Below are positions 32,323 to 44,120 of a stretch of 64,000 nucleotides of DNA, in pieces. This stretch comes from Corallococcus coralloides. Lineage in GTDB: Bacteria > Myxococcota > Myxococcia > Myxococcales > Myxococcaceae. The notes beneath the pieces are model-generated. The model worked only from the letters and a program-made list of their open reading frames with translations, had not been told where the DNA came from and did not search any database. Where the stretch lies: assembly GCF_044792175.1 (NCBI RefSeq), contig NZ_CP172866.1. One strand, 5' to 3'. How positions within the stretch are numbered: the first letter of the stretch is position 1; every line of letters begins with the position of its first letter. The position numbers and the translations under genes were made by a program.

Positions 32323-35300
32323 GTGGAGAGCCAAACTTCCAATGCCAGCATCACCTCCCTGCGCGTGGGCAGTCTGACCCACGTGCGCGTGGCCGGGGTG
32401 ATCGACGAAACCTTCCCCCTCTCCCCAGCCTCCAAGGGCCTCCAGGGCCTGGTGGTGGTGGACCTGGGCCTGGTCGAGCGCATCAGCTCCTTCGGCGTGC
32501 GCCGGTGGATTGAGTTCGCCGGCCACCCGCCGCAGGGCGTGTCGGGGCTGTACGTCGTCAACGCGCCGCCGGTGGTGGTGGATCAGCTCAACATGGTGGA
32601 GGGCTTCGCGGGCGTCGCGCGCGTGCTCTCGCTGCTGGCGCCGTACTCGTGCCGCTTCTGCAAGGAGGACCGGCTGCGGCTGGTGCGCCTGGTGGAGGAG
32701 GCGAAGGTGCTGGAGCAGGGCGGGGCCCCGCCGCACCAGTGCCCCGTGTGCGCCCAGCCGCTGGAGTTCGCGGACGAGCCCACGGAGTTCTTCGACTTCG
32801 CGCGCCGCCAGCAGTTCTCCGCGGTGGACCCGGCGGTGCTGCGCTACCTGCGCTCCGGCATCCCCTCGGAGCCGTCCGAGCTTTCGTCGCACCTGAAGAT
32901 CATCCAGGACGACATCACCTTCATCACCCTGGCCAGCACGCTCAAGGGCGACCTGAACGTGCGCCGGCTGGCGTCCGGCCTGGAGGGGCGCGTCGCGTTC
33001 GACTGCTGCCACGTGAGCGTGGTGGAGCCGGAGGCGCTGCCGCGCATCGAGCAGGTGCTGGAGGTGGCGTCGCAGGGCGCCCAGGTGGTGCTCTGCCGCG
33101 TGCCGCCGCCGCTGTTGGCCGTGCTGGCGAAGTCCACCAAGACGCTGCCCGCGAAGCTGGCCACGCTGTGGCTGCCGTGCGACTGCCGCAACTGCGGCCA
33201 GGTCACCCACCAGCGCATCCAGACCTCCGAGTACCTGGAGGTGCTGCGCTCCAAGGGCACCATGGAGCGCGTGTGCCCCGTCTGCGGCGGCAGCGCCCGG
33301 GCTCCGGCGCTCTCGCAGTTCCAGGGGCTGCTCGCGCGCACGCCGCTCACCGACAAGCCGCTGGACGACATCGAGGCGCTGGAGCAGCGCGCCCTCAGCC
33401 AGTACCTCTTCGGCTCCACCAACCAGGACCCCGGCGCCAAGGGCACGTCCGCCACGGACACGCACAACAGCGGCGCGCGGCTGCAGATCATCCGCCGGCT
33501 GGGGCAGGGCGGCATGGCGGAGGTCTTCCTCGCCAAGCAGCAGGGCGTGAAGGGCTTCGAGAAGTTCGTCGTGATGAAGAAGATTCTCGCGCAGTTCGCG
33601 GAGAATCCTGAGTTCGTCGACATGCTCTTCGCGGAGGCCCGCGCCAACGCGCGCCTCACGCACCCCAACGTCGTGCAGACCTTCGACGTGGGCGTGACGG
33701 ACGGCGTGGCGTACATCCTGATGGAGTACGTGCGCGGTCCGGACCTGAAGCGCCTGCTCACGGAGCTGCGCCGCAAGGGCATGGCGCTGCCGCTGGAGCA
33801 CGCGCTGCGCATCGTGGCGGAGGTGGCCGCGGGCCTGCACTACGCGCACAGCTACGTGGACCCGTCCGGCACGGCGCACCCGGTGGTGCACCGCGACGTC
33901 AGCCCCCACAACGTGCTGGTGTCGCTGGACGGCGCCATCAAGCTGTCGGACTTCGGCATCGCCAAGGTGCAGGGCGAGGAGCACACGCAGGCGGGCGTCA
34001 TCAAGGGGAAGATCTCCTACCTCTCCCCGGAGGCCGCCAGCGGCCGCCCGCTGGACTGGCGCAACGACGTGTTCGCGCTGGGCGTGGTGCTCTTCGAACT
34101 GCTCACCGGCCAGTTGCCGTTCCGCCGGGACCACGACGCGGCCACGCTCGCGGCCATCGTGCGCGAGCCCGCGCCGGTGCCCTCGCAGTTGCGGCCCCAC
34201 ATCCCGCAGGACGTGTCGGACCTGATCCTCCGCGCGCTGGTGAAGGACCCGGCGCGGCGCACGCCCTCCGCGGCGGCGATGCGCGAGGAGATCGAAGCCG
34301 TCATCGCGCACCACCGGCTGTCCTCGTCGCCCGCGTCGGTGGCGCAGTTCTTCAAGGAGGCGCTGGGTGACCGGCTCTCCGAGTACGCGCCGTCGTCCAT
34401 CGCCGGCTCGGGGACGGGCTCCAACCCCCGGGCGCTGATGCCGGGCACGGGCTCGCACTCGCGCAACCTGGGCACGGGCTCCGGCAGCGACATGCGGGCC
34501 CCGTCGGACCTGTCCCGGCCGCCCGTGCGAGGCGGCTCCGGCAGCATGCCCCGCATGGAGCCGCCCCCGGTGGCCTCCCCGCCGGAGCCCGCCGAGCGCG
34601 GGACCGAGGTCGTCTCCGTCTCCTCGCCGCCCGTGGCCTCGCCGCCGGTGGCCCCGCCCGTGGCCGCCGCGCCCCGTCCGTCGCGCCCGGCCGCGGCTCC
34701 GCCCACGTCGCCGCTGCCGCCGCCCTCCGCGGTGCGCCCCGCCGCGTCCGCCAACGTGCCCACGCGCGTGGGCCCCCCGCCGCAGGCGCCCGCGCGCCCA
34801 TCGGTGTCGGTGCCCTCCGTCGCCCCCATGACCGCGGCCCCGCCGCCGCCCCCTGTGTCCGCCATGCCGCCCCCGCCGCCGCATGGGGGCACCCACGCGC
34901 AATACGGGGTCGCCCACGTGCAGCAGGGAGGCGCCCCGCAGCCGCAGGCGGGTGCCTACGCGCAGGGAGGCGCTTCGCAGCCGCAGGCAGGTGCCTACGC
35001 GCCGCAGGGAGGCGCCCACGCTCCGCAGGCAGGTGCCTACGCGCCGCAGGGAGGCGCGTCGCAGCCGCAGGCAGGTGCCCACGCGCCGCAAGGGGGCTCT
35101 CCGCGGACGTCAGGCACCCACGCGCCGCCGACGACGGGCACCCACGCCGCCTATGGGGGGAGCCATCCCTCGTCCGTGGCCCCGCCGCCGCCGCCTGTGT
35201 CGACGCCCATGGCCCCGCCCGCGCGAGCGCCAGCGGCCCACGTGGCCCCGCCGCCGGCTCCCGTCCACGCGGTCTCCCCCACGGCTCAAGCGCCCGCCGC

Positions 35301-35817
35301 CGAAGCGACGGCGAAGGGGCTGACGCCCGGCCAGCGCAAGGGGCTCATCGTGGGCGGCGTGGCCCTGGTGCTCGCGGGGCTCGCGCTGGTGTTCCTGCTG
35401 CCCAAGGGCGGCGTGGAGGTGCGCAACGCCCAGGAGGGTGAGCGCGTCTACGTGTCCGGCGTCCTGCTGGACGCGAACCAGGGCCTGCCCGAGGGCAACG
35501 CCGGCTGGCTCATCTCCACGGCCGTGGACGGCAAGCTGCACCGCTTCGGCAAGGTGCCGAGGTCGGAGCACATCGACCTGCGCACGCTCGCGGACGCCCC
35601 GCCCCAGGCGGAGGCCCGGGGCACGCTCAGCGTCACCGGCGCGCAGGGCTGCCGCGTGGCGCTGGGCTCGCAGGTGCTGGAGGGCCAGACGCCCCTGTCC
35701 AGCCAGATGCCCGCGGGCCGCGAGTTCGAGGTGCGCGTCACCTGCGGCGGCAAGCCGGACCTCGTCCGCTGGGTGATGGCCGTCCCGGGACAGGGCGTCG
35801 CGCTGGACGTGCCCTGA
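32323..35817 (+). CDS. multidomain Ser/Thr protein kinase: N-terminal STAS-like domain, Cys4 ribbons, Hanks kinase, Pro-rich repeat region, TM segment, C-terminal beta domain
   Basis: STAS pattern (GLVVVDLGLVERISSFGVRRWIEF ... LYVVNAPPVVVDQL). Cys pairs (CRFC...CPVC; CDCRNC...CPVC). Kinase subdomains (GQGGMAEVFLAK, VMKKIL, HRDVSPHNVLV, DFGIAK, SPE). TM (LIVGGVALVLAGLALVFLL). Confidence 0.8.
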   Translation: MESQTSNASITSLRVGSLTHVRVAGVIDETFPLSPASKGLQGLVVVDLGLVERISSFGVRRWIEFAGHPPQGVSGLYVVNAPPVVVDQLNMVEGFAGVARVLSLLAPYSCRFCKEDRLRLVRLVEEAKVLEQGGAPPHQCPVCAQPLEFADEPTEFFDFARRQQFSAVDPAVLRYLRSGIPSEPSELSSHLKIIQDDITFITLASTLKGDLNVRRLASGLEGRVAFDCCHVSVVEPEALPRIEQVLEVASQGAQVVLCRVPPPLLAVLAKSTKTLPAKLATLWLPCDCRNCGQVTHQRIQTSEYLEVLRSKGTMERVCPVCGGSARAPALSQFQGLLARTPLTDKPLDDIEALEQRALSQYLFGSTNQDPGAKGTSATDTHNSGARLQIIRRLGQGGMAEVFLAKQQGVKGFEKFVVMKKILAQFAENPEFVDMLFAEARANARLTHPNVVQTFDVGVTDGVAYILMEYVRGPDLKRLLTELRRKGMALPLEHALRIVAEVAAGLHYAHSYVDPSGTAHPVVHRDVSPHNVLVSLDGAIKLSDFGIAKVQGEEHTQAGVIKGKISYLSPEAASGRPLDWRNDVFALGVVLFELLTGQLPFRRDHDAATLAAIVREPAPVPSQLRPHIPQDVSDLILRALVKDPARRTPSAAAMREEIEAVIAHHRLSSSPASVAQFFKEALGDRLSEYAPSSIAGSGTGSNPRALMPGTGSHSRNLGTGSGSDMRAPSDLSRPPVRGGSGSMPRMEPPPVASPPEPAERGTEVVSVSSPPVASPPVAPPVAAAPRPSRPAAAPPTSPLPPPSAVRPAASANVPTRVGPPPQAPARPSVSVPSVAPMTAAPPPPPVSAMPPPPPHGGTHAQYGVAHVQQGGAPQPQAGAYAQGGASQPQAGAYAPQGGAHAPQAGAYAPQGGASQPQAGAHAPQGGSPRTSGTHAPPTTGTHAAYGGSHPSSVAPPPPPVSTPMAPPARAPAAHVAPPPAPVHAVSPTAQAPAAEATAKGLTPGQRKGLIVGGVALVLAGLALVFLLPKGGVEVRNAQEGERVYVSGVLLDANQGLPEGNAGWLISTAVDGKLHRFGKVPRSEHIDLRTLADAPPQAEARGTLSVTGAQGCRVALGSQVLEGQTPLSSQMPAGREFEVRVTCGGKPDLVRWVMAVPGQGVALDVP
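34924..35088 (+). repeat. in-frame tandem repeat, about 4 copies of 39-42 nt (QGGA-x-QPQAGAYAP) inside the kinase linker
   Basis: Direct reading: cagggaggcgc..cgcagccgcaggc.ggtgcctacgcgccg repeated 4 times. Confidence 0.6.
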
Positions 35818-35875: not shown

Positions 35876-36181
35876 TCAGTCGTGGGTGCCCACGTGCAGG
35901 TCGCCGTGGCGCACGCAGACCCAGTGGAAGGCGCAGGAGCACGCCACCGCGCGCGCGTGCGTGCAGCAGCGCCCCCCGAAGTCCTCCGGCAGCAACTCGC
36001 GCTCCAGCGCCGGCGGGTCCGGCAGCTCCCTGGGGGCGCCCCTCCCGGAGTCCGCAGGCGCGCTGCCGCAGCAGCCGCGCTGGAGGCAGCCGGGGCACAG
36101 GGACAATTCGCAGTGCGCGCACCAGTCGAACACCTCTCCGGCGGTGCCACGGCGCTCACAACCTCCACAGGCGTCGAACAT
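35876..36181 (-). CDS. small Cys-rich (putative zinc-binding) protein, 101 aa
   Basis: MFDACGGCERRG..WCAHCELSLCPGCLQRGCCGS...CCTHARAVACSCAFHWVC. A consensus GAGGAGG lies 6 nt upstream of this ATG. The track ORF 35876..37099 is a long artefactual extension. Confidence 0.45.
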   Translation of the reverse strand: MFDACGGCERRGTAGEVFDWCAHCELSLCPGCLQRGCCGSAPADSGRGAPRELPDPPALERELLPEDFGGRCCTHARAVACSCAFHWVCVRHGDLHVGTHD

Positions 36182-36424
36182 GGACGGCCTCCTCGCTTGC
36201 TTGTGAAGGACGGTAGAGCAGGGGTCCGACATCACGGGTCGTGCGGGGACGTCTGGCGCTCCGGGAGGAGGGAAGCGATGGCTGGCCGACGCTCGCGCCA
36301 CGCACCTTCCACGGGTGGACGGGAGGGAGGACGCACGCCGGTCCGTGAGCCCTTGCGGCGTTGGCCGGGGATTCGCATGGAACAGGGGCTCACGTAGTTC
36401 CAGTTTTTCGGGGAGGACGCAGTC

Positions 36425-36955
36425 ATGCGCAGACACCGCCGCATCATCGGAGTGTTCGGCTCCGGGGCGAACTCCCACGAAGAGTGGGTCGTCCCCCTGG
36501 CGCGGTGGATCGCGGAGGCCGGGTTCGACCTGCTCACCGGCGCGGGCGGCGGCGTCATGAGCGCGGCGGCCGGCGCCTTCGTCCAAGTGGAGGGGCGGCG
36601 GGGGGCGGCCATCGGCATCATCCCCGGCACGGTGGGCCCGGACGGCCGCTACCAGCCCCGGCCCGGCTACCCGAACACGGACATCGAGATCCCCATCTAC
36701 ACGCACCTGCCGCTCAGCGGAGAGCAGGGCACGGACCCCATGAGCCGCAACCACATCAACGTGCTGACGCCGCACGCGCTGGTGGCGCTGCCCGGGGGCG
36801 CCGGCACCGCGGCGGAGGCCTCCCTGGCCCTGCGCTATGGCAAGCCGCTCATCCTGCACGGCCCAACGGAGGTGTTCCGGCGCTTCCCGGCGGAGGCCGA
36901 GCGCACCACCTCCCTGGAGCGGGTGGCCGAGTTCCTCCTGGCCGCCACCCGGTAG
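36425..36955 (+). CDS. LOG/SLOG-family Rossmann protein (TIGR00725-like, 'DprA/Smf-related family 1')
   Basis: IGVFGSG, LTGAGGGVMSAAAGA (PGGxGxxxE-like), and VALPGGAGTAAEASLA (xLPGGxGTxEE-like). Confidence 0.7.
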   Translation: MRRHRRIIGVFGSGANSHEEWVVPLARWIAEAGFDLLTGAGGGVMSAAAGAFVQVEGRRGAAIGIIPGTVGPDGRYQPRPGYPNTDIEIPIYTHLPLSGEQGTDPMSRNHINVLTPHALVALPGGAGTAAEASLALRYGKPLILHGPTEVFRRFPAEAERTTSLERVAEFLLAATR

Positions 36956-37088
36956 GCGGCAGGCGGGCTGAAGCAGGGCCCGGCCGGGGGGAAGCCACCC
37001 CACGGGGTGGCAAAAGATTCTAGGATGGACGGCACGGGGAAGGGCGTGCACCGCGCGCGCACGCCCGGCACCCGTCACGTCCGCCATC

Positions 37089-37493
37089 ATGCTCATCAAC
37101 CCCGACTATCCGCTGGCCAGTTGGTTCCTCGCGGTCTCCACCTCGGTCTTCCTGGTCGTCTACGCGCTGCCGCTGCTGTTCATCCCGCTGCGCTGGGCGC
37201 GCTGGTTCGGGTGGGAGCTGCCCACGGGCAACAACGACTTGACGGTCTACTTCGCGCGCTGCCTGGGCGGCCTGGCGCTGTCCGTCATCATCGCGGTGGT
37301 GCAGTTCATCCCGGACCCCAGGAGCCACCTGGTCATCTTCGAGCTCATCGGCCTGATTGGCGGCCTGATGACGGCGGTGCACATCTGGGGCGCGCTGAAG
37401 AAGCAGCAGCCCTGGCTGGAGACGGCGGAGATCCCCCTCTACGGCGCCATGTGCCTGGGCGCCCTGTACCTGCGCTACGCGCACCTGTCCTGA
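37089..37493 (+). CDS. small integral membrane protein (4 predicted TM helices)
   Basis: Hydrophobic segments FLAVSTSVFLVVYALPLLFIPL, LGGLALSVIIAVVQF, LVIFELIGLIGGLMTAVHIWG and LYGAMCLGALYL. Ends 18 nt before the cyclase gene. Confidence 0.55.
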   Translation: MLINPDYPLASWFLAVSTSVFLVVYALPLLFIPLRWARWFGWELPTGNNDLTVYFARCLGGLALSVIIAVVQFIPDPRSHLVIFELIGLIGGLMTAVHIWGALKKQQPWLETAEIPLYGAMCLGALYLRYAHLS

Positions 37494-37511
37494 GCGGAAA
37501 GCCCTTCAAGG

Positions 37512-40500
37512 ATGCCCTCCACGCAGCCCATTGATCCCGCTGTCGCGATGCTGGCGCCGTACATGCCGGCGGCCATCCTCGCGCGGCTCGGGAGCCAGGA
37601 GGCGGACGCGCTGCCCCGGGCGGAAGGGGTGCGCGGCGCCATCCTGCTGCTGGACATCGCGGGCTTCACGCCCATCGTGGTGGGGCTGAGCGGCGCGGGC
37701 CCGCGCGGCATCGACGCGCTCCAGCGCCTGCTGACGAACTACTACACGGAGATGATCGACGTGGTCCGCGACCACGGCGGGGACATCTACCAGTTCGCCG
37801 GTGACTCCATCCTCGCGTGCTTCGAGGCCGCGCCCGGGGAGGCGGACGCGGACGTCGTGCAGCGCGCGGCGGTGTGCGCGCTGGGCGTGCAGCGGCGGCT
37901 GGCGCGCTTCGCCCGGCTGGAGCTGCTGGGCCAGCGCTTCGGCGTGTCGTCGCGCATCGGCATCGGGTTCGGGGAGGCCACCCGCATCGTGATGGGCGCC
38001 ACCGGCCTGTGGATGCACCCGGCGCTCGTGGGAGAGCCGCTGGCGCAGGCGGTGGGCGCGGAGAAGCAGGCCACGGTGTCGGAGGTCGTCCTGAGCCCGC
38101 GAGCCTGGGCGGCCCTGCCGGAGTCCGCGCGCAAGGGCGAGCCGCGCGAGGGCGGCAACCACCGGCTGGCGCTGGACGCGCCGGTGGAGTCGGTGAAGCG
38201 CCCGCTGCCCGCGCCCACGGGCGGCGCGGAGCTGGTGGGCCGGTGCGCGCTGCTGCTGCACCCGGTGCTCTTCACGAAGATCACCACCGCGCACCAGGAG
38301 TTCGCGGGCGACTTCCGCGACGTCACCTGCTTCTTCGTGCGCTTCACCCACGCGCAACCGGACGCGGATCCGGACACCTTCACCCGCGACCTCAACGCCT
38401 ACTACGAATACGTCCAGCGCGAGTCCGCCCACCACGGCGGCGTGCTGCTGATGACGGACTTCACGGACAAGGGCAACGTGCTCTACGTCCTGTTCGGCGC
38501 GCCCACCGCCCAGCAGAACAAGGAGGTGCTGGCGTGCCGGCTGGCCTGCAAGCTGCTCAAGGCCCGCGAGCAGTTCCCCTTCCTGGACGAGCTGCAGATC
38601 GGCATCGCCACCGGCCACGCCTACTGCGGGGACATGGGCTCGCCCACGCGCAAGGGCTACTCGGCGCTGGGCGAGGTCGTGAACATGGCCGCGCGCCTGA
38701 TGACGCACGGCGGACGCCAGGACGGCGTGCACCTGTGCGCCAACACCCAGGCGCGCTCACAGCAGGGCGGCTTCGCCACCGAGTTCGTCGAGGACGCGAA
38801 GCTCAAGGGCGTCTCGCGCTCGGTGCCGGTGTACCGGCTGCTGGGAGAGACGCGCCGCGGCCTCTTCATCAAGGGCCGGGGCGACATCATCGGCCGCAGC
38901 CGTGAGCTCAACGTGCTGCACGCGTCGCTCAACGCGGCCTTCGCCGGCCAGGGCCGCGTGTGCGTGGTGTCCGGCGAGGCGGGCATCGGCAAGTCGCGGC
39001 TGGGCGCGCGCGTGCTGGAGGACGCGGAGGAGGGCGGCGCCCGGGCGCTGTACGGCGTCTGCTACTCCTACGAGGCCTTCACCCCCTTCTTCCCCTGGAA
39101 GGAGGTCCTGCTCCAGGCGTTCGGCCTGCACGACTCGGACGACACCGACGCGCAGCTCGCGCGCCTGCGGCAGGGGCTGGAGGGACTGGAGGACGTGGGG
39201 CCGGAGTGGATCCCCGTGGTCGCGGGCATCCTCGGCATGTCGCTGGAGGAGACGTCCGCCACCGCGGGGATGGACGCGCGGCGCAAGCAGCAGAAGGTGT
39301 TTCAACTCGTCTTCCAGCTCCTGGAGAAGCTCAGCCGCGCGCAGCCGCTGCTGCTCTTCTTCGAGGACCTGCACTGGGCGGACTACATCTCGTTGGACCT
39401 GCTCCAGTACCTGGCGGTGCGCGTGGGCTCGCACCGCATCATGGTGCTGGCGACCATGCGCCCGGGCGACCAGCTCCGCGGGCTGCGCGACCTGCCGGAG
39501 TTCATCCCGCTGGACCTGGTGAGCCTGGACGACGAGGACACGCGGGCGCTGTTGCGCGTGCACCTGCGCCTGTCGCCGCCGGACGTCGCGCTGGAGGACC
39601 GGCTGCTCGCGAAGGTGCAGGGCAACCCGTTCTTCATCGAATCCATCGTGGAGGGCCTGGCGGAGCAGGGCTACCTGGGGCCGGTGGAGCCCGGCTCGCC
39701 GCGCATGGAGTTGAAGCGCGGCCTGCAGGACCTGCTCCTGCCGGACTCCATCCAGGACGTGGTGCTGTCGCGCATCGACCTGCTCAGCGAGACGGAGAAG
39801 CTGGTGGTGAAGGTGGCGTCCGTCATCGGGCGCATCTTCACGCTGGACGCGGTGGCGGCGCTGGTGCCCACGCTGGGCCACGCCATGCTGCGCGAGGCCA
39901 TGGACACGCTCCAGCGCCTGGGCCTCATCCTGCTGGAGACGGAGGAGCCGTACACCTGCCTCTTCAAGCACATCGTCATCCGCGACGTGGCCTACAACAC
40001 GCTGCTGGTGTCCGCGCGCGAGGACCTGCACCGCCGGCTCGCGCGCTACCTGGAGGCCCGCGCCAACGACAACCTCGCGGGCTCCGCGGGTCTGCTCGCG
40101 TTCCACTTCCTCGCGGGCAACGTGGAGGACAAGGGCCTGGAGTACACGCTGATGGCGGCCCGCAGCGCGCGGGCGCAGTACGCGAACGACGACGCGCTCT
40201 ACCACTACAACCGGGGCCTGGAGCTGCTGGGCACCGTCGTGCCGGTGGACCCGGAGGCGACGCTGCTCCAGACGCGCCGGGTGATGCAGGAGCTGGCGGA
40301 GACGCTGCTGCAGGCGGGCGACTACGCCAACGCCATCCTGATGTTCGAGCAGTGCCTGGTGGACGAGGAGGAGCCTCCCCGCCAGGCGGAGCTGCACCTG
40401 GGCCTGGGCCGCGCGCACCAGGAGAAGGGCGAGTCCGCGCTCGCCACGCAGCACCTGGAGAAGTCGCTGGTGCTGCGGGGCCGCAGCCTCCCGGGGAACC

Positions 40501-41816
40501 TGGCCACGCTGGGCCTGCGCACGCTGGCGAACCTCCTGCTGCGGGGGCTCGCGTCGCTTTTGCCCTTCATCCTGCGCCCGCTGCCGGCGGCGCGGCTGGG
40601 CAACTACCTGCAGCAGTTGTCCACGCTCAACTCGCTCATCCGCATCTACTACTTCGCGGACATCACCAAGCTCACCTGGGCGACGCTGGTGTCCACCAAC
40701 ATGGCGGAGCGCTCGCGCAGCGACTACGCCAGGAGCCTGGCGCGCGGCTACTACGGCACGCTCCTGTTCGGCGCGGGGCTGCTCGGCCGCGCGCGCTACC
40801 ACTGCGAGAAGGCGCTGGAGTACGCCCGGCGCTCCAAGGACCCCGTGGCGGAGGGGCTCGCGCTCAGCCGCCTGGGCATCCAGGCCTTCTTCGCCAACGA
40901 GCTGGAGCGCGCGAGAGAGTTCCAGGAGGAGGCCGTCTCCACGCTGCGCCAGGTGGGCGAGCGCTGGGAGCGCCAGACGTCGCTGATGATGCAGGCCACG
41001 GGCGAGTTCCTCCACTCGCGCTTCCGCGCCGCGGTGGCGCTCTACGAGCAGATGGGGGCCATTGGCGTGGAGCTCAACGCGCTGATGCACCAGGGCTGGG
41101 CGCACTCGTGGGCGCCCATGTGCCGCTACCTCATGGGCGAAGGCGACGTGGGCGAATTGTGCGCGGAGCTGGAGCAGGGCCTGCGCATCAGCGTGGAGGT
41201 GGCGGACCTGGCCAACCAGTGCGCCAGCCTGAACCACCTGGCCAACGTCACGGTGCGCGAGCACCAGGTGGAGGAGGCGGCGCTCGTCGCGGTGCGCTGC
41301 TTCAAGAGCATCTGGAGCTACCAGGTGATGGTGCCCTTCCTCCAGGTGGGGCTGGTGGACGCGGCGGAGGCGGCCCTCTTCGCGCTGGAGGAGGGCGCCA
41401 CGGTGGTGCCGCGCAAGAAGCTGCTGAAGATCGTCAAGCTGGCGTGCATCAAGGCGCGCGTCATCGCCCGGCTCTATCCGTACCTGAAGGGCCCGGCGCT
41501 GCGCGTGACGGCGCGCTCGCTGGCCCTGCGCAAGGGGCCGAAGGCCGCGGAGCCGGTGTTCCTGGAGGCCATCGCCGTCCTGGAGAAGAGCCCCAACCGC
41601 TGGGAGACGGGCGTGGCCTACTTCGACGCGGCGGTGGCCCTGCCGCACCGGCGCGAGGACTTCCTCGCCCGGGCGCGCGCCATCTTCACGGAGGTGGAGG
41701 CCCGCGCGGAGCTGCGCCGCGTGGACCGCTTCCAGGCCACGCTCCAGGCCCCGCCGGCCCCGGCGCTCGTCGCCGTGCCCCAGGCCTCCCAGGTCCGTGA
41801 CGCTCGCGTGATGTGA
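37512..41816 (+). CDS. tandem class-III adenylate/guanylate cyclase domains + STAND/AAA P-loop NTPase + TPR repeats
   Basis: Cyclase domain 1 (ILLLDIAGFTP...IYQFAGDSILACF). Cyclase domain 2 (FRDVTCFFVRF...LMTDFTDKGNVLYVLFGAP...GEVVNMAARL). Walker A GEAGIGKS. Walker B LLFFEDLHWAD. C-terminal TPR/MalT-like helical repeats. Confidence 0.85.
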   Translation: MPSTQPIDPAVAMLAPYMPAAILARLGSQEADALPRAEGVRGAILLLDIAGFTPIVVGLSGAGPRGIDALQRLLTNYYTEMIDVVRDHGGDIYQFAGDSILACFEAAPGEADADVVQRAAVCALGVQRRLARFARLELLGQRFGVSSRIGIGFGEATRIVMGATGLWMHPALVGEPLAQAVGAEKQATVSEVVLSPRAWAALPESARKGEPREGGNHRLALDAPVESVKRPLPAPTGGAELVGRCALLLHPVLFTKITTAHQEFAGDFRDVTCFFVRFTHAQPDADPDTFTRDLNAYYEYVQRESAHHGGVLLMTDFTDKGNVLYVLFGAPTAQQNKEVLACRLACKLLKAREQFPFLDELQIGIATGHAYCGDMGSPTRKGYSALGEVVNMAARLMTHGGRQDGVHLCANTQARSQQGGFATEFVEDAKLKGVSRSVPVYRLLGETRRGLFIKGRGDIIGRSRELNVLHASLNAAFAGQGRVCVVSGEAGIGKSRLGARVLEDAEEGGARALYGVCYSYEAFTPFFPWKEVLLQAFGLHDSDDTDAQLARLRQGLEGLEDVGPEWIPVVAGILGMSLEETSATAGMDARRKQQKVFQLVFQLLEKLSRAQPLLLFFEDLHWADYISLDLLQYLAVRVGSHRIMVLATMRPGDQLRGLRDLPEFIPLDLVSLDDEDTRALLRVHLRLSPPDVALEDRLLAKVQGNPFFIESIVEGLAEQGYLGPVEPGSPRMELKRGLQDLLLPDSIQDVVLSRIDLLSETEKLVVKVASVIGRIFTLDAVAALVPTLGHAMLREAMDTLQRLGLILLETEEPYTCLFKHIVIRDVAYNTLLVSAREDLHRRLARYLEARANDNLAGSAGLLAFHFLAGNVEDKGLEYTLMAARSARAQYANDDALYHYNRGLELLGTVVPVDPEATLLQTRRVMQELAETLLQAGDYANAILMFEQCLVDEEEPPRQAELHLGLGRAHQEKGESALATQHLEKSLVLRGRSLPGNLATLGLRTLANLLLRGLASLLPFILRPLPAARLGNYLQQLSTLNSLIRIYYFADITKLTWATLVSTNMAERSRSDYARSLARGYYGTLLFGAGLLGRARYHCEKALEYARRSKDPVAEGLALSRLGIQAFFANELERAREFQEEAVSTLRQVGERWERQTSLMMQATGEFLHSRFRAAVALYEQMGAIGVELNALMHQGWAHSWAPMCRYLMGEGDVGELCAELEQGLRISVEVADLANQCASLNHLANVTVREHQVEEAALVAVRCFKSIWSYQVMVPFLQVGLVDAAEAALFALEEGATVVPRKKLLKIVKLACIKARVIARLYPYLKGPALRVTARSLALRKGPKAAEPVFLEAIAVLEKSPNRWETGVAYFDAAVALPHRREDFLARARAIFTEVEARAELRRVDRFQATLQAPPAPALVAVPQASQVRDARVM

Positions 41817-41896: not shown

Positions 41897-42727
41897 ATGA
41901 ACACCGCGCCGCTCCGCTTCCAGCTCAGTCCCGTCATCGTCGTCTACATGCTCGTGGTCCACGGCCTGGCCGCGCTGGCGTTCATCCTGCCCTGGCCGCC
42001 GTACGCGCTGCCGGTGGCGCTGGCCGTGTACGTGTCCATTGGCCTGGGCACGACGGTGGGGCTGCACCGGCTCTTGTGCCACCGCGCCTTCGCGTGCCCC
42101 CGCTGGGTGGAGTACGCGCTGGTGACGGTGGCCATGCTCACGGCGCAGGGCAGCCCGCTGCTCTGGGCCGCCAACCACCGGCTGCACCACGCGAAGGCGG
42201 ACGCGGACGGGGACGTGCACTCGCCGGTGCGCGGCTTCTGGTACGCGCACATGGGGTGGATCCTCAACGAGGCCTCCACGGAGGAGGACGGCTGGCGCAC
42301 CTGGTGCCGCGACATGGCGGACGACGGCTACTACCACTGGCTCTTGCGCTACCGCATCGCGCCGCAGGTGCTCGCGGTGCTCTTCGTGGGGCTGACCTTC
42401 GGCTGGCGCACGGTGCCCGCGTACTTCTTCCTGCCCGTGGTGTGCTGGATGCAGAGCACCTACGCGGTGAACTCCGTGTGCCACGCCGCGTTCGGACACC
42501 GCGACCATGACACGCGCGACCACAGCCGCAACGTGTGGTGGGTGAGCGTGCTCGCGCTGGGCGAGGGCTGGCACAACAACCACCACGCCTTCCCCGCGTC
42601 CGCGCGGCACGGCTGGGTGTGGTGGCAGTGGGACCCGGGCTGGCTCTTCATCCGGGCGCTCCAGGCGCTGGGGCTGGCGTGGGACGTGCGCCTGCCGTCC
42701 CGGCTCAGGTCAGGACCTGCGGCGTGA
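41897..42727 (+). CDS. acyl-CoA/acyl-lipid desaturase (stearoyl-CoA desaturase-like)
   Basis: His boxes HRLLCH, HRLHH, HNNHH. Four TM segments. Confidence 0.85.
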   Translation: MNTAPLRFQLSPVIVVYMLVVHGLAALAFILPWPPYALPVALAVYVSIGLGTTVGLHRLLCHRAFACPRWVEYALVTVAMLTAQGSPLLWAANHRLHHAKADADGDVHSPVRGFWYAHMGWILNEASTEEDGWRTWCRDMADDGYYHWLLRYRIAPQVLAVLFVGLTFGWRTVPAYFFLPVVCWMQSTYAVNSVCHAAFGHRDHDTRDHSRNVWWVSVLALGEGWHNNHHAFPASARHGWVWWQWDPGWLFIRALQALGLAWDVRLPSRLRSGPAA

Positions 42728-44120
42728 GGCCCAGCGCGGGCATCCGCTCCGCGTCCCACGCCTCAATGGCGTCCAGCCCCGCGATGTAGCGGCGCTCCGG
42801 GTTCTTCACCGGGTTGCGGATGCTGACGATTTCCGGCCCGGAGAAGAGGATGGTCTGCTTGTAGCGGGGCAGGTCGCTCATCATCAGCTTGGATGCGTAG
42901 TGCCGCGCGATGTTGGGCAGGCTGCCCAGCGTGCGGCACAGCCGCTGGAAGTGCTCCACCACCTCCGACGCGTGCATCTGCTTGGGCCGGTGGCACAGCG
43001 TGTAGCCGTCGTAGTCGCGGCTGGTGGTGCCGGGCAGGAGCCGGTCCTCGGCCTTCAGCTCGCGGAAGAAGGGCGTCTCCGGATACGGGCACACGATGCC
43101 CAGGAACGTGACGGAGAAGTACTTCAGGTCCGCCAGGTAGTCCGGCAGCCGGTGCAGGTACTCGTTGGTGTCGCCGTCCGAGCCGACGATGAGCCCGAAG
43201 GACAGCAGGATGCCGGCGGAGAAGACGCGGCGGATGACGGCGTCCACCTCCGACAGCTTGTTCTGGCCCTTGTTCATCGCCTTGAGCGAGTCCGGGTTGA
43301 GCGACTCCAGGCCGGTGTAGACGTAGCGGCAGCCCGCCTTCGCCATCAGCTTCACCAGCGACTCGTCCTTGAGCACGTTGAAGGTGAGCGCGCAGCCCCA
43401 CGTCTTCTTCAGGGGGATGAGCGCCTCGCACAGCGCGCGCAGGTACTTGGGCGAGCCGCCCAGGTTGTTGTCCAGGAAGACGAACGCGTCCCCCATCAGC
43501 CCCAGGAAGTTCGGGTTCCAGCGCATGCGCGTCTGGATTTCGTCGATGACCTCCGGGATGGGCCGGAAGCGGTAGCGCTCGTGGCCGGTGAGCACGCAGA
43601 AGTTGCACGTGAAGGGGCAGCCGCGCGACGCCTCGATGCCCGGCAGGCGCACCTTGTTGTGCGTGAAGTCGATGAGCTCGTAGCGGTACGGCCGGATGGC
43701 CGCGGCGCCCTGCGACGGCAGGCTGTAGCGGGGCTTGAGCTCACCCTTCTCGAAGTCCGCGATGAGCGCCGGCACGTTGGACTCCGGCTCCCCGGTGATG
43801 ACCGCGTCGAAGTACTTCGCCGCGTCGTCCGGGAAGTGGCTCGCGTGCCGGCCTCCCGCCACCGTCGTCATTCCGCGCTGACGGAAGAGGGTGGAGAGCA
43901 CCTTGGTGTGCTCGTAGTACGAGTGCAGGTACGAGAAGAAGACCAGGTCCCAGTGCCGGTCCAGCGGCAGGTCCGCCTCCTTCTCGTTGAAGATCTCCAC
44001 CTCGGCGTGCTCCGGGCACAGGCCCGCGATGAGCTCCGGCACGGAGGACTGCATGATGGAGGGTTCCTTGATTCGCAGCCGGGTCGGATGGGTGTACGTG
44101 GCGATGATGGCGATGCGCAT
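42705..44120 (-). CDS. B12-binding-domain radical SAM protein (class B rSAM)
   Basis: N-terminal B12-binding-like region. CxxxCxxC cluster (SRGCPFTCNFCVL). The 3' end overlaps the desaturase 3' end by 23 nt on the opposite strand. Confidence 0.85.
   Translation of the reverse strand: MRIAIIATYTHPTRLRIKEPSIMQSSVPELIAGLCPEHAEVEIFNEKEADLPLDRHWDLVFFSYLHSYYEHTKVLSTLFRQRGMTTVAGGRHASHFPDDAAKYFDAVITGEPESNVPALIADFEKGELKPRYSLPSQGAAAIRPYRYELIDFTHNKVRLPGIEASRGCPFTCNFCVLTGHERYRFRPIPEVIDEIQTRMRWNPNFLGLMGDAFVFLDNNLGGSPKYLRALCEALIPLKKTWGCALTFNVLKDESLVKLMAKAGCRYVYTGLESLNPDSLKAMNKGQNKLSEVDAVIRRVFSAGILLSFGLIVGSDGDTNEYLHRLPDYLADLKYFSVTFLGIVCPYPETPFFRELKAEDRLLPGTTSRDYDGYTLCHRPKQMHASEVVEHFQRLCRTLGSLPNIARHYASKLMMSDLPRYKQTILFSGPEIVSIRNPVKNPERRYIAGLDAIEAWDAERMPALGLTPQVLT

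What the first reader, a model, noticed from the sequence alone, without database searches (positions are those of the whole stretch)
35876..41816. Candidate nucleotide-second-messenger module: SLOG/LOG-like protein, 4-TM protein and a double-cyclase STAND-TPR protein in one operon
Three same-strand genes with gaps of 133 and 18 nt encode the following. (i) A 176-aa LOG/SLOG-type Rossmann protein with GGGxG and LPGGxGT motifs. (ii) A 134-aa 4-TM protein. (iii) A 1434-aa protein with two class-III nucleotidyl-cyclase domains, a STAND/AAA P-loop NTPase (GEAGIGKS) and a TPR sensor array. SLOG domains have been proposed as nucleotide-signal sensors, and small TM proteins (SLATT-like) as their effectors. 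Class-III cyclases generate the messenger in Pycsar-like systems. STAND+TPR is the NLR/Avs-like sensor architecture. Together these could form a signal-generator / sensor / membrane-effector unit. A small Cys4-rich protein with a perfect RBS is transcribed divergently and could be its regulator. Caveat: cyclase-AAA-TPR proteins are numerous in myxobacteria as ordinary regulators.
Basis: partly seen in the sequence, partly recalled or inferred. Interest (0 to 1): 0.8.

Follow-up and report, generated by a model that had tools for sequence, protein, structure and literature searches.

The report
Myxobacterial sAC-type cyclase gene neighbourhood
The three genes are real and stay together in one group of myxobacteria, but they look like an inherited housekeeping signalling neighbourhood built around a cyclase shaped like mammalian soluble adenylyl cyclase, not an anti-phage sensor/effector system.

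Summary
All described genes exist at the stated coordinates. The 176-aa protein is a SLOG cluster-4 protein (Pfam PF18306); its closest solved relatives are molybdenum-cofactor carrier proteins, then LOG enzymes. The 134-aa protein is a conserved 4-TM bundle with no Pfam family and no SLATT match. The 1434-aa protein has the plan of full-length soluble adenylyl cyclase (ADCY10): C1-C2 catalytic domains, then a STAND ATPase and TPRs. The catalytic residues form one composite active site, invariant in 22 orthologues.

The order Cys-rich gene / SLOG / 4-TM / cyclase / B12 radical-SAM gene is conserved in Corallococcus, Myxococcus, Pyxidicoccus, Hyalangium and Stigmatella, and sequence identity follows taxonomy. 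Flanking genes are housekeeping, and PADLOC gives only generic cyclase hits.

SLOG orthologues in 49 loci from other phyla (45-59% identical) sit among unrelated housekeeping genes. The 4-TM gene instead tracks the radical-SAM gene. Both were lost together twice, independently. In an unrelated metagenomic contig they lie 16 nt apart, downstream of a different cyclase-STAND-TPR gene.

The defence-like generator/sensor/effector model is not supported. A regulatory link between the cyclase and a membrane/radical-SAM process is the better reading. The SLOG link is unproven.

The parts
35876..36181 (-). Cys/His-rich 101-aa protein (CxxC-x12-CxxC-x4-CxxC-x4-CC, then CC/C-x-C/His-rich tail). It is transcribed divergently from the SLOG gene and is specific to this lineage.
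   Evidence: AGGAGG ribosome-binding site plus ATG. The frame stays open, 57-95% identical over its full length, in 19 loci, always divergent from SLOG. Only 15 protein clusters exist in 5.8 billion proteins, all myxobacterial. No Pfam or PADLOC hit.
36212..36231 (.). Conserved motif GGTAGAGCAGGGGTCCGACA in the 243-nt divergent intergenic region. It may be a promoter or operator.
   Evidence: It is nearly invariant across 21 aligned loci in an otherwise variable spacer. Its function was not tested.
36425..36955 (+). SLOG cluster-4 protein, 176 aa, resembling molybdenum-cofactor carrier proteins and LOG enzymes. It carries GGGxxM and PGGxGTxxE motifs and an invariant SRNHxN motif.
   Evidence: PF18306, E=2.7e-24. 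Best PDB profile hits are 6y01 and 2iz5, E 1e-18 to 1e-20. The model has pLDDT 93, and Foldseek ranks the carrier proteins first, then LOG, YgdH, PpnN and DprA. There are 39 invariant columns across phyla.
36994..37026 (+). Elements in the SLOG-to-4-TM spacer: a GC hairpin (GCCACCCC/GGGGTGGC, 36994-37011) followed by the conserved A/T-rich motif AAAAGATTCTAGGATG (-10-like TAGGAT at 37021-37026). This may be a terminator followed by an internal promoter.
   Evidence: Sequence read. The TCTAGGATG / TCTAGAATG / TATGCT motif is conserved in 22 loci. The consensus scan found no canonical sigma-70 promoter or terminator. This reading is an inference.
37089..37493 (+). 134-aa 4-TM helical-bundle protein from a small, unnamed family. 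Invariant residues include R57, C58, H98, Q107, P108, E111 and E114.
   Evidence: GC3 0.97. 138 homologues. 216 representatives in 1.84 billion proteins. Invariant columns. Model pLDDT 94. No Pfam or SLATT hit. No significant fold match.
37512..41816 (+). 1434-aa nucleotidyl cyclase of the soluble-adenylyl-cyclase type: C1, C2, STAND (AAA_16) ATPase, then TPRs.
   Evidence: Pfam. C1 and C2 each match human sAC C1 and C2 respectively. 22 orthologues aligned.
37548..38141 (+). Cyclase domain C1 (residues 13-210). It supplies the two metal-binding Asp residues (D48 in LLDIAGFT, D98 in FAGDS).
   Evidence: Best PDB hit is human sAC residues 15-198, E=7e-12. The residues were mapped with the table in PMC12867704. 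They are invariant in 22 orthologues.
38274..38861 (+). Cyclase domain C2 (residues 255-450). It supplies Asn and Arg (GEVVNMAARLM) and a sAC-like TDKG loop. The base-recognising Lys334 of sAC is Met here.
   Evidence: Best PDB hit is human sAC residues 283-468, E=2e-12. Residue mapping.
38889..39446 (+). STAND/AAA_16 nucleotide-binding domain. Walker A is GEAGIGKS (residues 488-495) and Walker B is LLLFFEDLHWAD (613-624).
   Evidence: Pfam AAA_16, E=1.1e-24. Walker A is identical in all 22 orthologues; Walker B varies only in its leading hydrophobic residues, and its FEDLHWAD core is invariant.
40212..41711 (+). TPR / helical-repeat C-terminal region (residues about 901-1400).
   Evidence: TPR Pfam hits and TPR matches in the PDB. 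Identity to Stigmatella and Hyalangium orthologues is 56-74%, equal to or higher than for the catalytic domains.
41897..42727 (+). Fatty-acid desaturase family protein, 276 aa. It is inserted between the cyclase and radical-SAM genes in Corallococcus only.
   Evidence: PF00487, E=1.3e-17. Found only in the Corallococcus-type loci (L001-L007, L027; L003 is labelled only as a Myxococcaceae MAG).
42705..44120 (-). B12-binding radical-SAM enzyme, 471 aa, convergent with the cyclase gene. It is the most conserved gene of the cluster, and its presence tracks that of the 4-TM gene.
   Evidence: Pfam Radical_SAM plus B12-binding. All NCBIfam hits are far below their cut-offs. Identity is 81-97% across genera. 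It was lost together with the 4-TM gene in L009 and L011. In L139 it lies 16 nt from a 4-TM homologue.

Best explanation
This is a vertically inherited chromosomal neighbourhood specific to one myxobacterial group (the genera listed below). It is not a mobile defence module.

The cyclase. The central protein is a bacterial counterpart of full-length soluble adenylyl cyclase. Two different cyclase domains fold into one pseudo-heterodimer with a single active site: C1 gives the two metal-binding Asp residues, and C2 gives the Asn and Arg. A STAND ATPase and a well-conserved TPR region follow. By analogy with STAND proteins in general, I infer that this region switches the cyclase on or off in response to an internal cue. 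The product is probably cAMP. That is unproven, because the base-recognising Lys of sAC is Met in every orthologue.

The 4-TM protein. Its gene lies 4-33 nt upstream of the cyclase gene, so the two are almost certainly co-transcribed. Functionally it belongs with the B12 radical-SAM enzyme encoded convergently downstream. I infer that the 4-TM/radical-SAM pair is a membrane-associated enzyme system, and that the cyclase-STAND-TPR protein either senses its state or regulates it.

The SLOG protein. It belongs to a widely conserved, housekeeping-type family that binds small molecules or hydrolyses nucleotides. It probably has its own transcription unit. Its position here is specific to this lineage, and no functional tie to the cyclase has been shown.

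Shown here: the domain identities, the conservation of catalytic residues, the gene order, and the pattern of joint loss. Inferred: the direction of regulation, the product, co-transcription, and any role for SLOG.
For: Cyclase type:
- Domain 1 matches human sAC C1 (44 bits) far better than C2 (2 bits). Domain 2 matches C2 (42 bits) far better than C1 (6 bits).
- I mapped the residues with Table 1 of PMC12867704. Asp47, Asp99, Asn412 and Arg416 are kept. Lys144 is Arg, and the FDKG loop is TDKG. All are invariant in 22 orthologues.
- Full-length sAC is described as C1-C2 plus a predicted STAND domain with a P-loop (PMC12802110).
- sAC catalytic domains are reported as closest to cyanobacterial and myxobacterial cyclases (PMC3918592).
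- Walker A is invariant in 22 orthologues and Walker B nearly so, and the TPR region is as conserved as the catalytic domains.

Vertical, housekeeping nature:
- The same gene order occurs in Corallococcus, Myxococcus, Pyxidicoccus, Hyalangium, Stigmatella and related metagenome-assembled genomes, and identity follows taxonomy.
- The flanks encode a Ser/Thr kinase, a TonB receptor, a PiT/PhoU pair, peptidases, a desaturase and similar proteins.
- PADLOC returns only generic PycC similarity, at most 40 bits.

Link between the 4-TM and radical-SAM genes:
- Both are missing from L009 (a 4-TM remnant only) and from L011, while SLOG, the Cys-rich gene and the cyclase are intact.
- L009 and L011 fall in different Myxococcus clades whose sister species keep both genes, so these are two independent losses.
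- In the unrelated contig L139 the order is single-domain cyclase-AAA_16-TPR, then a radical-SAM gene 64% identical to the window's, then a 4-TM homologue after a 16-nt gap. There is no SLOG gene.
- The gap from the 4-TM gene to the cyclase gene is 4-33 nt in 22 loci.

SLOG is independent:
- 49 loci from other phyla hold orthologues 45-59% identical with no shared neighbour. There it sits between sucB and lpdA, or next to an aminotransferase, NudC, DsbA, GNAT, UvrA-like or ValRS genes.
- In Archangium it sits beside a P450 gene, without the 4-TM or cyclase genes.
Against: - No transcription, enzymatic or genetic data exist for any of these genes.
- The link between the 4-TM and radical-SAM genes rests on two loss events and one independent adjacency. 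About 40 other 4-TM-family loci with adequate flanks have no radical-SAM gene nearby.
- The cyclase persists without the 4-TM and radical-SAM genes in L009 and L011, so it cannot depend strictly on them.
- SLOG, the Cys-rich gene and the cyclase have stayed adjacent across several genera despite extensive rearrangement elsewhere. That leaves room for a real SLOG-cyclase link.
- I took homology of the C-terminal region to sAC's own C-terminus from the literature. I did not test it directly.
Confidence: 0.55

Rival explanations
1. An integrated housekeeping second-messenger circuit. The sAC-type cyclase makes a cyclic nucleotide. The SLOG cluster-4 protein binds it, or degrades a downstream nucleotide as LOG enzymes do. 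The Cys-rich protein and the 4-TM/radical-SAM pair are inputs or outputs of the same circuit.
For: - The Cys-rich gene, SLOG and the cyclase stay adjacent in every locus of this group that has the cyclase, including the two that lost the 4-TM and radical-SAM genes.
- SLOG keeps the nucleotide-binding PGGxGTxxE motif. It also has an invariant Arg108 23 residues before Glu131, the same spacing as the proposed catalytic Arg99 and Glu122 of Corynebacterium LOG.
- SLOG-superfamily proteins have been proposed as sensors or processors of nucleotide signals (PMC6459960).
Against: - Outside this group, SLOG orthologues never neighbour a cyclase.
- The independent cyclase / radical-SAM / 4-TM cluster in L139 has no SLOG gene.
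- Archangium keeps SLOG alone.
- The spacer of 78-155 nt between SLOG and the 4-TM gene carries a hairpin and a conserved promoter-like motif, which suggests a separate transcript.
- Adjacency within a single group can be inheritance alone.
Confidence: 0.2
2. Neighbours by descent only. Apart from co-transcription of the 4-TM and cyclase genes, the genes share no function, and the cluster persists through lack of rearrangement.
For: - Identity tracks taxonomy, and the upstream kinase and downstream radical-SAM gene are also syntenic, as in a generally conserved chromosomal block.
- SLOG and the 4-TM protein each occur alone in many other contexts.
Against: - The two independent joint losses of the 4-TM and radical-SAM genes, and the reappearance of cyclase-STAND-TPR, radical-SAM and 4-TM genes in a different order in L139, are hard to explain by inertia.
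- AAA_16 STAND genes lie near 4-TM-family genes in four different architectures. None was found in 768 kb of control loci.
Confidence: 0.2
3. This is a Pycsar/CBASS-like abortive-infection system: an NLR-like STAND-TPR sensor activates the cyclase, the SLOG protein senses the cNMP, and the 4-TM protein permeabilises the membrane.
For: - Weak PycC profile hits, best 40.6 bits at E=4e-11.
- The parts list (cyclase, SLOG, small TM protein, STAND-TPR) resembles the components of predicted conflict systems (PMC7159879).
- The non-canonical base-recognition residue (Met in place of Lys334) leaves the product open.
Against: - No SLATT or other effector model matches the 4-TM protein. It has 4 TM helices, not 2, and invariant polar residues more typical of an enzyme or ligand-binding protein.
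- No PADLOC hit for the SLOG, 4-TM or Cys-rich proteins.
- The locus is core, syntenic and has housekeeping flanks, with no mobile-element genes among the flanking genes scanned (about 24.5-55.2 kb of the window).
- The TPR region is conserved rather than diversifying.
- The cyclase is a tandem sAC-type pseudo-heterodimer.
- SLOG is closest to the carrier proteins and LOG enzymes. ThsA-type sensors are absent from the top 50 fold matches.
- The 4-TM gene was lost twice while the rest stayed.
Confidence: 0.05

Closest known systems
Mammalian soluble adenylyl cyclase, full-length isoform (ADCY10 / sACfl)
   Same: - Two different class-III domains in the order C1 then C2, each most similar to its sAC counterpart.
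- One composite active site: the metal-binding Asp residues in C1, Asn and Arg in C2, and a similar C2 beta2/3 loop (FDKG in sAC, TDKG here).
- A large C-terminal region containing a STAND P-loop domain.
   Different: - The base-recognising Lys334 is Met, and Thr405 is Ser.
- The bicarbonate ligands Lys95 and Arg176 are Gln and Val. These are also absent from most non-mammalian sACs (PMC12867704).
- Direct homology of the two C-terminal regions was not tested.
- The bacterial gene comes with conserved 4-TM, radical-SAM and SLOG neighbours.
Bacterial cyclase-AAA_16-(TPR/HTH) regulators, for example M. tuberculosis Rv0386 (from my own knowledge) and the TOMM kinase/cyclase fusion family TIGR03903
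   Same: A class-III cyclase fused to an AAA_16 STAND ATPase and helical repeats. TIGR03903 matches residues 258-906 at E=6e-66. L139 carries such a single-domain version.
   Different: - Those proteins have one cyclase domain, which must form a homodimer. This protein has a tandem C1-C2 pair.
- The TIGR03903 score of 223 bits is far below its cut-off of 706, so this protein is not a member.
Molybdenum-cofactor carrier/binding proteins (Chlamydomonas MCP1, PDB 2iz5; Rippkaea MoBP, PDB 6y01)
   Same: - They are the best sequence matches (E 1e-18 to 1e-20) and the best fold matches (TM-score 0.70-0.79, 26-30% identity) for the SLOG protein.
- They share the GxGG and PGTxxE-type motifs.
   Different: - The window protein has two insertions (around residues 70-80 and 95-106) that carry invariant YP, THL and SRNHxN motifs.
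- Cofactor binding was not tested.
- The NCBI name 'molybdenum cofactor carrier protein' given to its homologues is not supported by any neighbouring molybdenum genes.
LOG (cytokinin riboside 5'-monophosphate phosphoribohydrolase) / PpnN nucleosidases
   Same: - SLOG fold.
- An exact PGGxGTxxE motif.
- An Arg 23 residues upstream of the motif's Glu, as in Corynebacterium LOG Arg99 and Glu122.
   Different: - The Pfam LOG model (PF03641) scores 17.6 bits against a cut-off of 27, and TIGR00730 scores 22 against 96.
- Only the N-terminal third aligns by sequence.
Pycsar (PycC cyclase plus PycTM/PycTIR effector) and SLOG/SLATT conflict systems
   Same: A class-III cyclase next to a small TM protein, with a SLOG-superfamily protein nearby.
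   Different: - The cyclase is a tandem sAC-type fused to STAND-TPR.
- The TM protein has no SLATT or PADLOC match.
- The locus is core and vertically inherited.
- The SLOG protein is of the carrier-protein/LOG type.
MalT/AfsR-type STAND regulators with TPR sensors
   Same: An AAA_16 nucleotide-binding domain with conserved Walker A and B motifs, followed by TPRs. In Streptosporangiaceae, 4-TM homologues sit just upstream of AfsR-like SARP-BTAD-AAA_16 genes.
   Different: The effector is a cyclase pair rather than a DNA-binding domain. No inducer is known.

Membership tests
SLOG superfamily, cluster 4 (Pfam PF18306) | Match to the family HMM above the gathering threshold | tested here: met
   85.9 bits against a cut-off of 26.3, E=2.7e-24, covering residues 6-156. 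All 120 listed homologues carry PF18306.
SLOG superfamily, cluster 4 (Pfam PF18306) | Rossmann-like SLOG fold with Gly-rich phosphate-binding loops | tested here: met
   Model pLDDT 93. Foldseek probability is 1.00 to the carrier proteins, LOG enzymes and DprA. GAGGGVM and PGGAGTAAE are present.
LOG phosphoribohydrolase (PF03641 / TIGR00730) | Match to the family HMM above its cut-off | tested here: not met
   PF03641 scores 17.6 against 27. TIGR00730 scores 22.1 against 96. TIGR00725 scores 41.2 against 106.9.
LOG phosphoribohydrolase (PF03641 / TIGR00730) | PGGxGTxxE motif with the catalytic Glu and the upstream catalytic Arg | tested here: inconclusive
   The motif is exact. Arg108 and Glu131 are invariant and 23 residues apart, as in Corynebacterium LOG. 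The equivalence rests on motif and spacing, not on a residue-level structural alignment. The carrier proteins keep the same residues and are not known to be enzymes.
Molybdenum-cofactor carrier protein | Binds and protects molybdenum cofactor | not testable with these tools
   Only similarity was shown. No molybdenum-related neighbours appear in any of the loci examined.
SLATT (SMODS- and SLOG-associated 2-TM effector) | Match to a Pfam SLATT model | tested here: not met
   None of 21 family members matches any SLATT model, even at E<=10.
SLATT (SMODS- and SLOG-associated 2-TM effector) | Two-TM topology | tested here: not met
   The model shows four TM helices at residues 8-31, 50-71, 82-103 and 109-132. 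SLATT is described as 2-TM in PMC7159879.
Pycsar | PycC-type cyclase | tested here: inconclusive
   PADLOC PycC models hit at 16-41 bits. This is generic class-III similarity. The best structural relatives by sequence are sAC C1 and C2.
Pycsar | Adjacent effector with a cNMP-binding domain fused to a TM or TIR module | tested here: not met
   The 4-TM, SLOG and Cys-rich proteins have no cNMP-binding, TIR or PADLOC match.
Pycsar | Anti-phage function, patchy or mobile distribution | tested here: not met
   For distribution only: the locus is syntenic, identity tracks taxonomy, and the flanks are housekeeping. Phage protection itself cannot be tested here.
Soluble adenylyl cyclase (ADCY10) type | Tandem, non-identical C1 and C2 domains, each corresponding to sAC C1 and C2 | tested here: met
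   Domain 1 matches sAC 15-198 at 44 bits (against 2 bits to C2). Domain 2 matches sAC 283-468 at 42 bits (against 6 bits to C1).
Soluble adenylyl cyclase (ADCY10) type | Catalytic residues split between the domains (Asp47 and Asp99 in C1; Asn412 and Arg416 in C2) | tested here: met
   D48, D98, the Asn and the Arg are all present and invariant in 22 orthologues.
Soluble adenylyl cyclase (ADCY10) type | Adenine-recognising Lys334 | tested here: not met
   It aligns to Met in LLMTDFTDKG in all 22 orthologues. The product is therefore uncertain.
Soluble adenylyl cyclase (ADCY10) type | Bicarbonate-binding Lys95 and Arg176 | tested here: not met
   They are Gln and Val here. Most non-mammalian sACs also lack them (PMC12867704).
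Soluble adenylyl cyclase (ADCY10) type | C-terminal STAND P-loop region homologous to that of sACfl | not tested
   An AAA_16 STAND domain is present, and sACfl is reported to have a predicted STAND domain. No ADCY10 C-terminal sequence or structure was available to compare, and the afdb50 library was unavailable.
STAND NTPase (AAA_16 / MalT-AfsR type) | AAA_16 HMM match with intact Walker A and B motifs | tested here: met
   88.3 bits against a cut-off of 32.6. Walker A GEAGIGKS is invariant and the Walker B core FEDLHWAD is invariant in 22 orthologues.

The most novel reading that the evidence does not exclude
The cluster is one integrated circuit. A bacterial full-length sAC-type cyclase uses its STAND-TPR region to read the state of a membrane-bound B12 radical-SAM / 4-TM enzyme system. 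The SLOG cluster-4 protein, perhaps with the Cys-rich protein, acts as receptor or hydrolase for the resulting nucleotide signal. The product may be non-canonical, because the base-recognising Lys is Met. If so, this would give the first genetically tractable model for the unexplained STAND-TPR half of soluble adenylyl cyclase, and a first function for SLOG cluster 4 and for the 4-TM family.
Probability: 0.15. Interest if true: 0.6.

Novelty: new member of a known kind. Interest (0 to 1): 0.36.

Why it matters
If the main reading holds, myxobacteria carry a conserved counterpart of full-length soluble adenylyl cyclase with fixed genomic partners. In mammals, the role of that enzyme's STAND/C-terminal half is still unknown (PMC12802110; PMC3918592). 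A bacterial version with a co-transcribed membrane partner and a co-varying B12 radical-SAM enzyme would make the question testable by genetics in Myxococcus xanthus.

The result also guards against over-calling defence systems from parts lists. Here a SLOG protein, a small TM protein, a cyclase and a STAND-TPR region sit together without the hallmarks of a conflict system.

Tried and rejected
1. SLATT, PycTM or DUF4345 identity for the 4-TM protein. No Pfam hit for 21 members at E<=10 and no PADLOC hit. UniRef's 'DUF4345' label was not reproduced.
3. Fused domains in longer 4-TM-family members. None found.
4. A general association between the 4-TM family and STAND proteins. AAA_16 genes lie near 4-TM homologues in four architectures: the myxobacterial cluster, L139, the SARP-type regulators in L081 and L171, and the kinase-type protein in L086 and L087. 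No true hit appeared in 768 kb of SLOG-baited control loci; the L059 hit was a UvrA-like false positive. About 40 other 4-TM loci have no STAND gene nearby, and the taxa differ between the two sets. I keep this as a lead, not a conclusion.
5. Conserved neighbours of SLOG outside myxobacteria. None found.
6. Promoter and terminator scan. No sigma-70 consensus site. The terminator-like hits are within chance expectation. By eye I found no CRP-like or sigma-54 site.
7. The closest solved relative of the STAND region. Only TPR matches came back.
8. The paper that defined the SLOG superfamily (Burroughs et al. 2015) is not held. I therefore make no statement about how its authors described cluster 4.
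9. My own error. Searches used 35876-36183(-) for the Cys-rich gene, which is out of frame. I corrected this. Searches were in frame.
10. The window's own 4-TM protein is not in the contig index, so the source genome is not on record.

Full report
**1. Observation**

The window has about 71% GC, so I used third-codon-position GC to separate real genes from shadow ORFs. The three plus-strand ORFs at 36425-36955, 37089-37493 and 37512-41816 have GC3 of 0.96-0.98. The overlapping alternatives have 0.49-0.77. The gaps are 133 and 18 nt.

The Cys-rich divergent gene is real, but its exact coordinates are 35876-36181(-), giving 101 aa. It has an AGGAGG ribosome-binding site 6 nt before the ATG. Its frame stays open, 57-95% identical over its full length, in 19 related loci. 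The antisense ORF 35886-36206(+) has an equally high GC3 but is broken by stop codons in several species. My searches used an out-of-frame reference for this gene. Searches are in frame.

**2. What each gene is**

*SLOG protein.*
- It matches Pfam PF18306 (SLOG cluster 4) at E=2.7e-24. The LOG and TIGR00725/TIGR00730 models score far below their cut-offs.
- A 14-sequence profile finds the Rippkaea molybdenum-cofactor-binding protein (6y01, E=1e-19) and the Chlamydomonas carrier protein (2iz5, E=4e-18) as the best solved relatives. LOG enzymes and DprA follow.
- A confident model (pLDDT 93) gives the same ranking by fold. No ThsA-type conflict-system SLOG appears in the top 50.
- The protein has an exact PGGxGTxxE motif. 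It also has an invariant Arg108 23 residues before Glu131, the same spacing as the proposed catalytic Arg99 and Glu122 of Corynebacterium LOG. It could therefore bind or hydrolyse a nucleotide-like ligand. That is an inference.

*4-TM protein.*
- It has 138 homologues, but only 216 representative clusters in 1.84 billion proteins.
- The model is a four-helix membrane bundle with pLDDT 94.
- Invariant residues include Arg57, Cys58, His98, Gln107, Pro108, Glu111 and Glu114.
- No Pfam model matches any of 21 members, SLATT included. There is no PADLOC hit and no significant fold match.

*1434-aa protein.*
- Pfam sees one cyclase domain, an AAA_16 domain and TPRs.
- Searching each half of the N-terminus against PDB sequences shows that residues 13-203 match human soluble adenylyl cyclase C1 (15-198). 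Residues about 255-450 match C2 (283-468). Each prefers its own counterpart by about 40 bits.
- I mapped the functional residues with the table in PMC12867704. The two metal-binding Asp residues sit in C1. Asn412 and Arg416 have equivalents in C2. Lys144 is Arg, and the FDKG loop is TDKG. All are invariant in 22 orthologues.
- Three residues differ. The base-recognising Lys334 is Met, and the bicarbonate ligands Lys95 and Arg176 are Gln and Val.
- Walker A is invariant and Walker B nearly so (its FEDLHWAD core is invariant).
- Full-length mammalian sAC is described as C1-C2 followed by a predicted STAND domain with a P-loop (PMC12802110). Its catalytic domains are reported as closest to cyanobacterial and myxobacterial cyclases (PMC3918592).
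- The protein is therefore a bacterial, full-length, sAC-type cyclase with one composite active site. The product is probably cAMP, but this is unproven.

**3. Synteny**

I used the SLOG alignment as bait on one genome per species, which gave 80 loci. The order Cys-rich(-) / SLOG / 4-TM / cyclase / radical-SAM(-) is present in Corallococcus, Myxococcus, Pyxidicoccus, Hyalangium-like and Archangiaceae metagenome-assembled genomes. It is also present in Stigmatella and several metagenomic contigs. Identity falls with taxonomic distance for every gene, for example 87-94%, then 68-71%, then 58-63% for the cyclase. This is the pattern of vertical inheritance.

The gap from the 4-TM gene to the cyclase gene is 4-33 nt in 22 loci. 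The gap from SLOG to the 4-TM gene is 78-155 nt. That spacer contains a GC hairpin and a conserved A/T-rich, -10-like motif. This suggests, but does not prove, a separate 4-TM-cyclase transcript.

Archangium keeps SLOG without the others, next to a P450 gene. Vitiosangium also keeps SLOG without the adjacent 4-TM and cyclase genes.

**4. SLOG outside this group**

49 loci from Binatia, Acidobacteriota, Alphaproteobacteria, Gemmatimonadota, Planctomycetota and other phyla encode orthologues 45-59% identical. They share no neighbour across phyla. The neighbours I sampled are housekeeping: sucB and lpdA on either side in Alphaproteobacteria, an aminotransferase, NudC, DsbA, a GNAT, a UvrA-like protein, ValRS and Lhr. 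This fits a widely conserved housekeeping-type protein. It does not fit a defence-island sensor.

**5. The 4-TM gene tracks the radical-SAM gene**

Two Myxococcus loci lack the 4-TM gene. L009 keeps only a frame-broken remnant, and L011 keeps nothing. The same two loci also lack the radical-SAM gene, while SLOG, the Cys-rich gene and the cyclase are intact. By cyclase identity, L009 belongs with the M. xanthus clade (88%) and L011 with a different clade (83%). They are 75% identical to each other. These are therefore two independent joint losses.

I then ran a metagenome scan with a 4-TM alignment led by a distant member, which returned 80 more loci. One of them, L139, carries three genes on one strand: a Zn-ribbon / single-cyclase / AAA_16 / TPR protein, then a radical-SAM protein 64% identical to the window's, then a 4-TM homologue (36% identical) after a 16-nt gap. 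It has no SLOG gene.

So the cyclase-STAND-TPR, radical-SAM and 4-TM genes recur together in a different order and with a different cyclase architecture. The radical-SAM enzyme is uncharacterised. Every NCBIfam hit is far below its cut-off, and the nearest solved relative is AprD4 at E=2e-11.

Elsewhere the 4-TM family sits in varied contexts:
- after a rubrerythrin / CCG Fe-S protein / DUF3501 set
- after a CxxCxxCC protein
- beside two-component systems
- upstream of AfsR-like SARP-AAA_16 regulators in Streptosporangiaceae

**6. Is it a defence system?**

The evidence is against it:
- PADLOC gives only generic PycC similarity for the cyclase and nothing for the other three proteins.
- The surrounding 30 kb encodes a TPR protein, a phosphonate-binding protein, a TonB receptor, a Ser/Thr kinase, a desaturase, a PiT/PhoU pair, a haem-oxygenase-like protein, an M28 peptidase and a lytic transglycosylase. 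It contains no mobile-element or defence genes.
- The TPR region is at least as conserved as the catalytic domains: 70-74% against 55-65% identity to Archangiaceae orthologues. An immune sensor would be expected to diversify.

**7. Mechanism I commit to**

The cyclase-STAND-TPR protein is an internal signalling switch. It is co-expressed with a small membrane protein that works with the adjacent B12 radical-SAM enzyme. The cyclase either reports on that membrane-associated process or regulates it. SLOG is a housekeeping-type ligand-binding or hydrolytic protein, and its adjacency may or may not be functional. My confidence is 0.55. The rivals are:
- an integrated circuit that includes SLOG (0.2)
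- neighbours by descent only (0.2)
- the Pycsar-like defence model (0.05)

**8. Novelty and score**

The cyclase architecture is a known kind (sAC and bacterial cyclase-STAND regulators), and the SLOG family is a catalogued Pfam family. In the literature I could search, I did not find three things described: the conserved five-gene neighbourhood, the co-variation of the 4-TM and radical-SAM genes, and the recurrence of those two genes with a cyclase-STAND-TPR gene. These are modest but testable leads. I rate interest at 0.36 and novelty as a new member of a known kind.

Noticed in passing
L035, L041, L057, L032, L037, L038 (Alphaproteobacteria / Micavibrio metagenome-assembled genomes), e.g. 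L035:8517-11970: In L035 the SLOG cluster-4 orthologue sits between the E2 (sucB-like 2-oxoacid dehydrogenase acyltransferase) and E3 (lpdA-like) genes of a 2-oxoacid dehydrogenase operon; homologous flanking genes occur at matching positions in the other five loci. This is a housekeeping context that might hint at the family's function.
   Followed up: partly
window 42705-44120(-) and 41897-42727(+): The B12-binding radical-SAM gene is the most conserved gene of the neighbourhood (81-97% identical across genera). It matches no NCBIfam family at its cut-off. In Corallococcus only, a fatty-acid desaturase gene is inserted between it and the cyclase gene, overlapping its 3' end by 23 nt.
   Followed up: partly
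L121, L143, L146, L147, L148, L151 (e.g. L147:4272-8675); L088:6360-7396: Distant 4-TM-family genes follow a rubrerythrin / CCG-domain Fe-S protein / DUF3501 set (with a ceramidase-like membrane protein nearby), or a CxxCxxCC protein. Taken with the invariant Cys58 and His98 and the Cys-rich neighbour in myxobacteria, this hints at a redox or metal-related role.
   Followed up: partly
L081:474-12372, L171:341-12191 (Streptosporangiaceae): 4-TM homologues (about 53% identical) lie in a conserved block: RamC-like LanKC kinase, S9 peptidase, MFS transporter, an unknown protein, the 4-TM gene, then a SARP-BTAD-AAA_16 (AfsR-like) regulator. This is another pairing of the 4-TM family with a STAND protein, here with a DNA-binding effector.
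   Followed up: partly
window 32323-35817(+): The upstream 1164-aa protein has an N-terminal STAS-like region with Cys pairs, a Ser/Thr kinase domain, and a Pro/Ala/Gln-rich region of roughly 350 residues with 'GAYAPQGGA'-type repeats, followed by one hydrophobic segment. It is syntenic with the cluster in several genera (L006, L023, L024, L170).
   Followed up: no
window 35886-36206(+): A 106-aa antisense ORF with GC3 of 0.91 overlaps the Cys-rich gene. Third codon positions coincide on the two strands, so GC3 cannot tell them apart. Only the stop codons in orthologous loci show that it is a shadow ORF.
   Followed up: yes
L013 (BNCN01000007.1, titled 'Comamonas sp. KCTC 72670') and L016 (titled 'Corallococcus terminator BB12-2'): The L013 locus is Myxococcus-like: its cyclase is 91% identical to that of M. 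xanthus L012. The L016 cyclase is 96-98% identical to those of Myxococcus L015 and L017 and only 69% identical to the Corallococcus-type window. Both record titles look mislabelled or contaminated.
   Followed up: no
L009:10560-10951 (Myxococcus sp. Y35): There is a frame-broken remnant of the 4-TM gene between intact SLOG and cyclase genes. Fragments 'GGHVWGALKKARPVAETV' and 'IRFNALS' lie in two different frames. This looks like a recent pseudogene, unless it comes from assembly indel errors.
   Followed up: partly
window 36212-36231 and 37012-37028: Two short motifs are conserved in otherwise variable GC-rich spacers: GGTAGAGCAGGGGTCCGACA near the start of the Cys-rich gene, and AAAAGATTCTAGGATGG upstream of the 4-TM gene. 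They are candidate regulatory sites.
   Followed up: partly
L018 and L029 (Archangium): Here the SLOG gene is divergent from a cytochrome P450 gene. The PDB entry for the related Rippkaea protein (6y01) is labelled 'p450 cytochrome, putative'. This may be coincidence, or a recurring SLOG-P450 adjacency.
   Followed up: no
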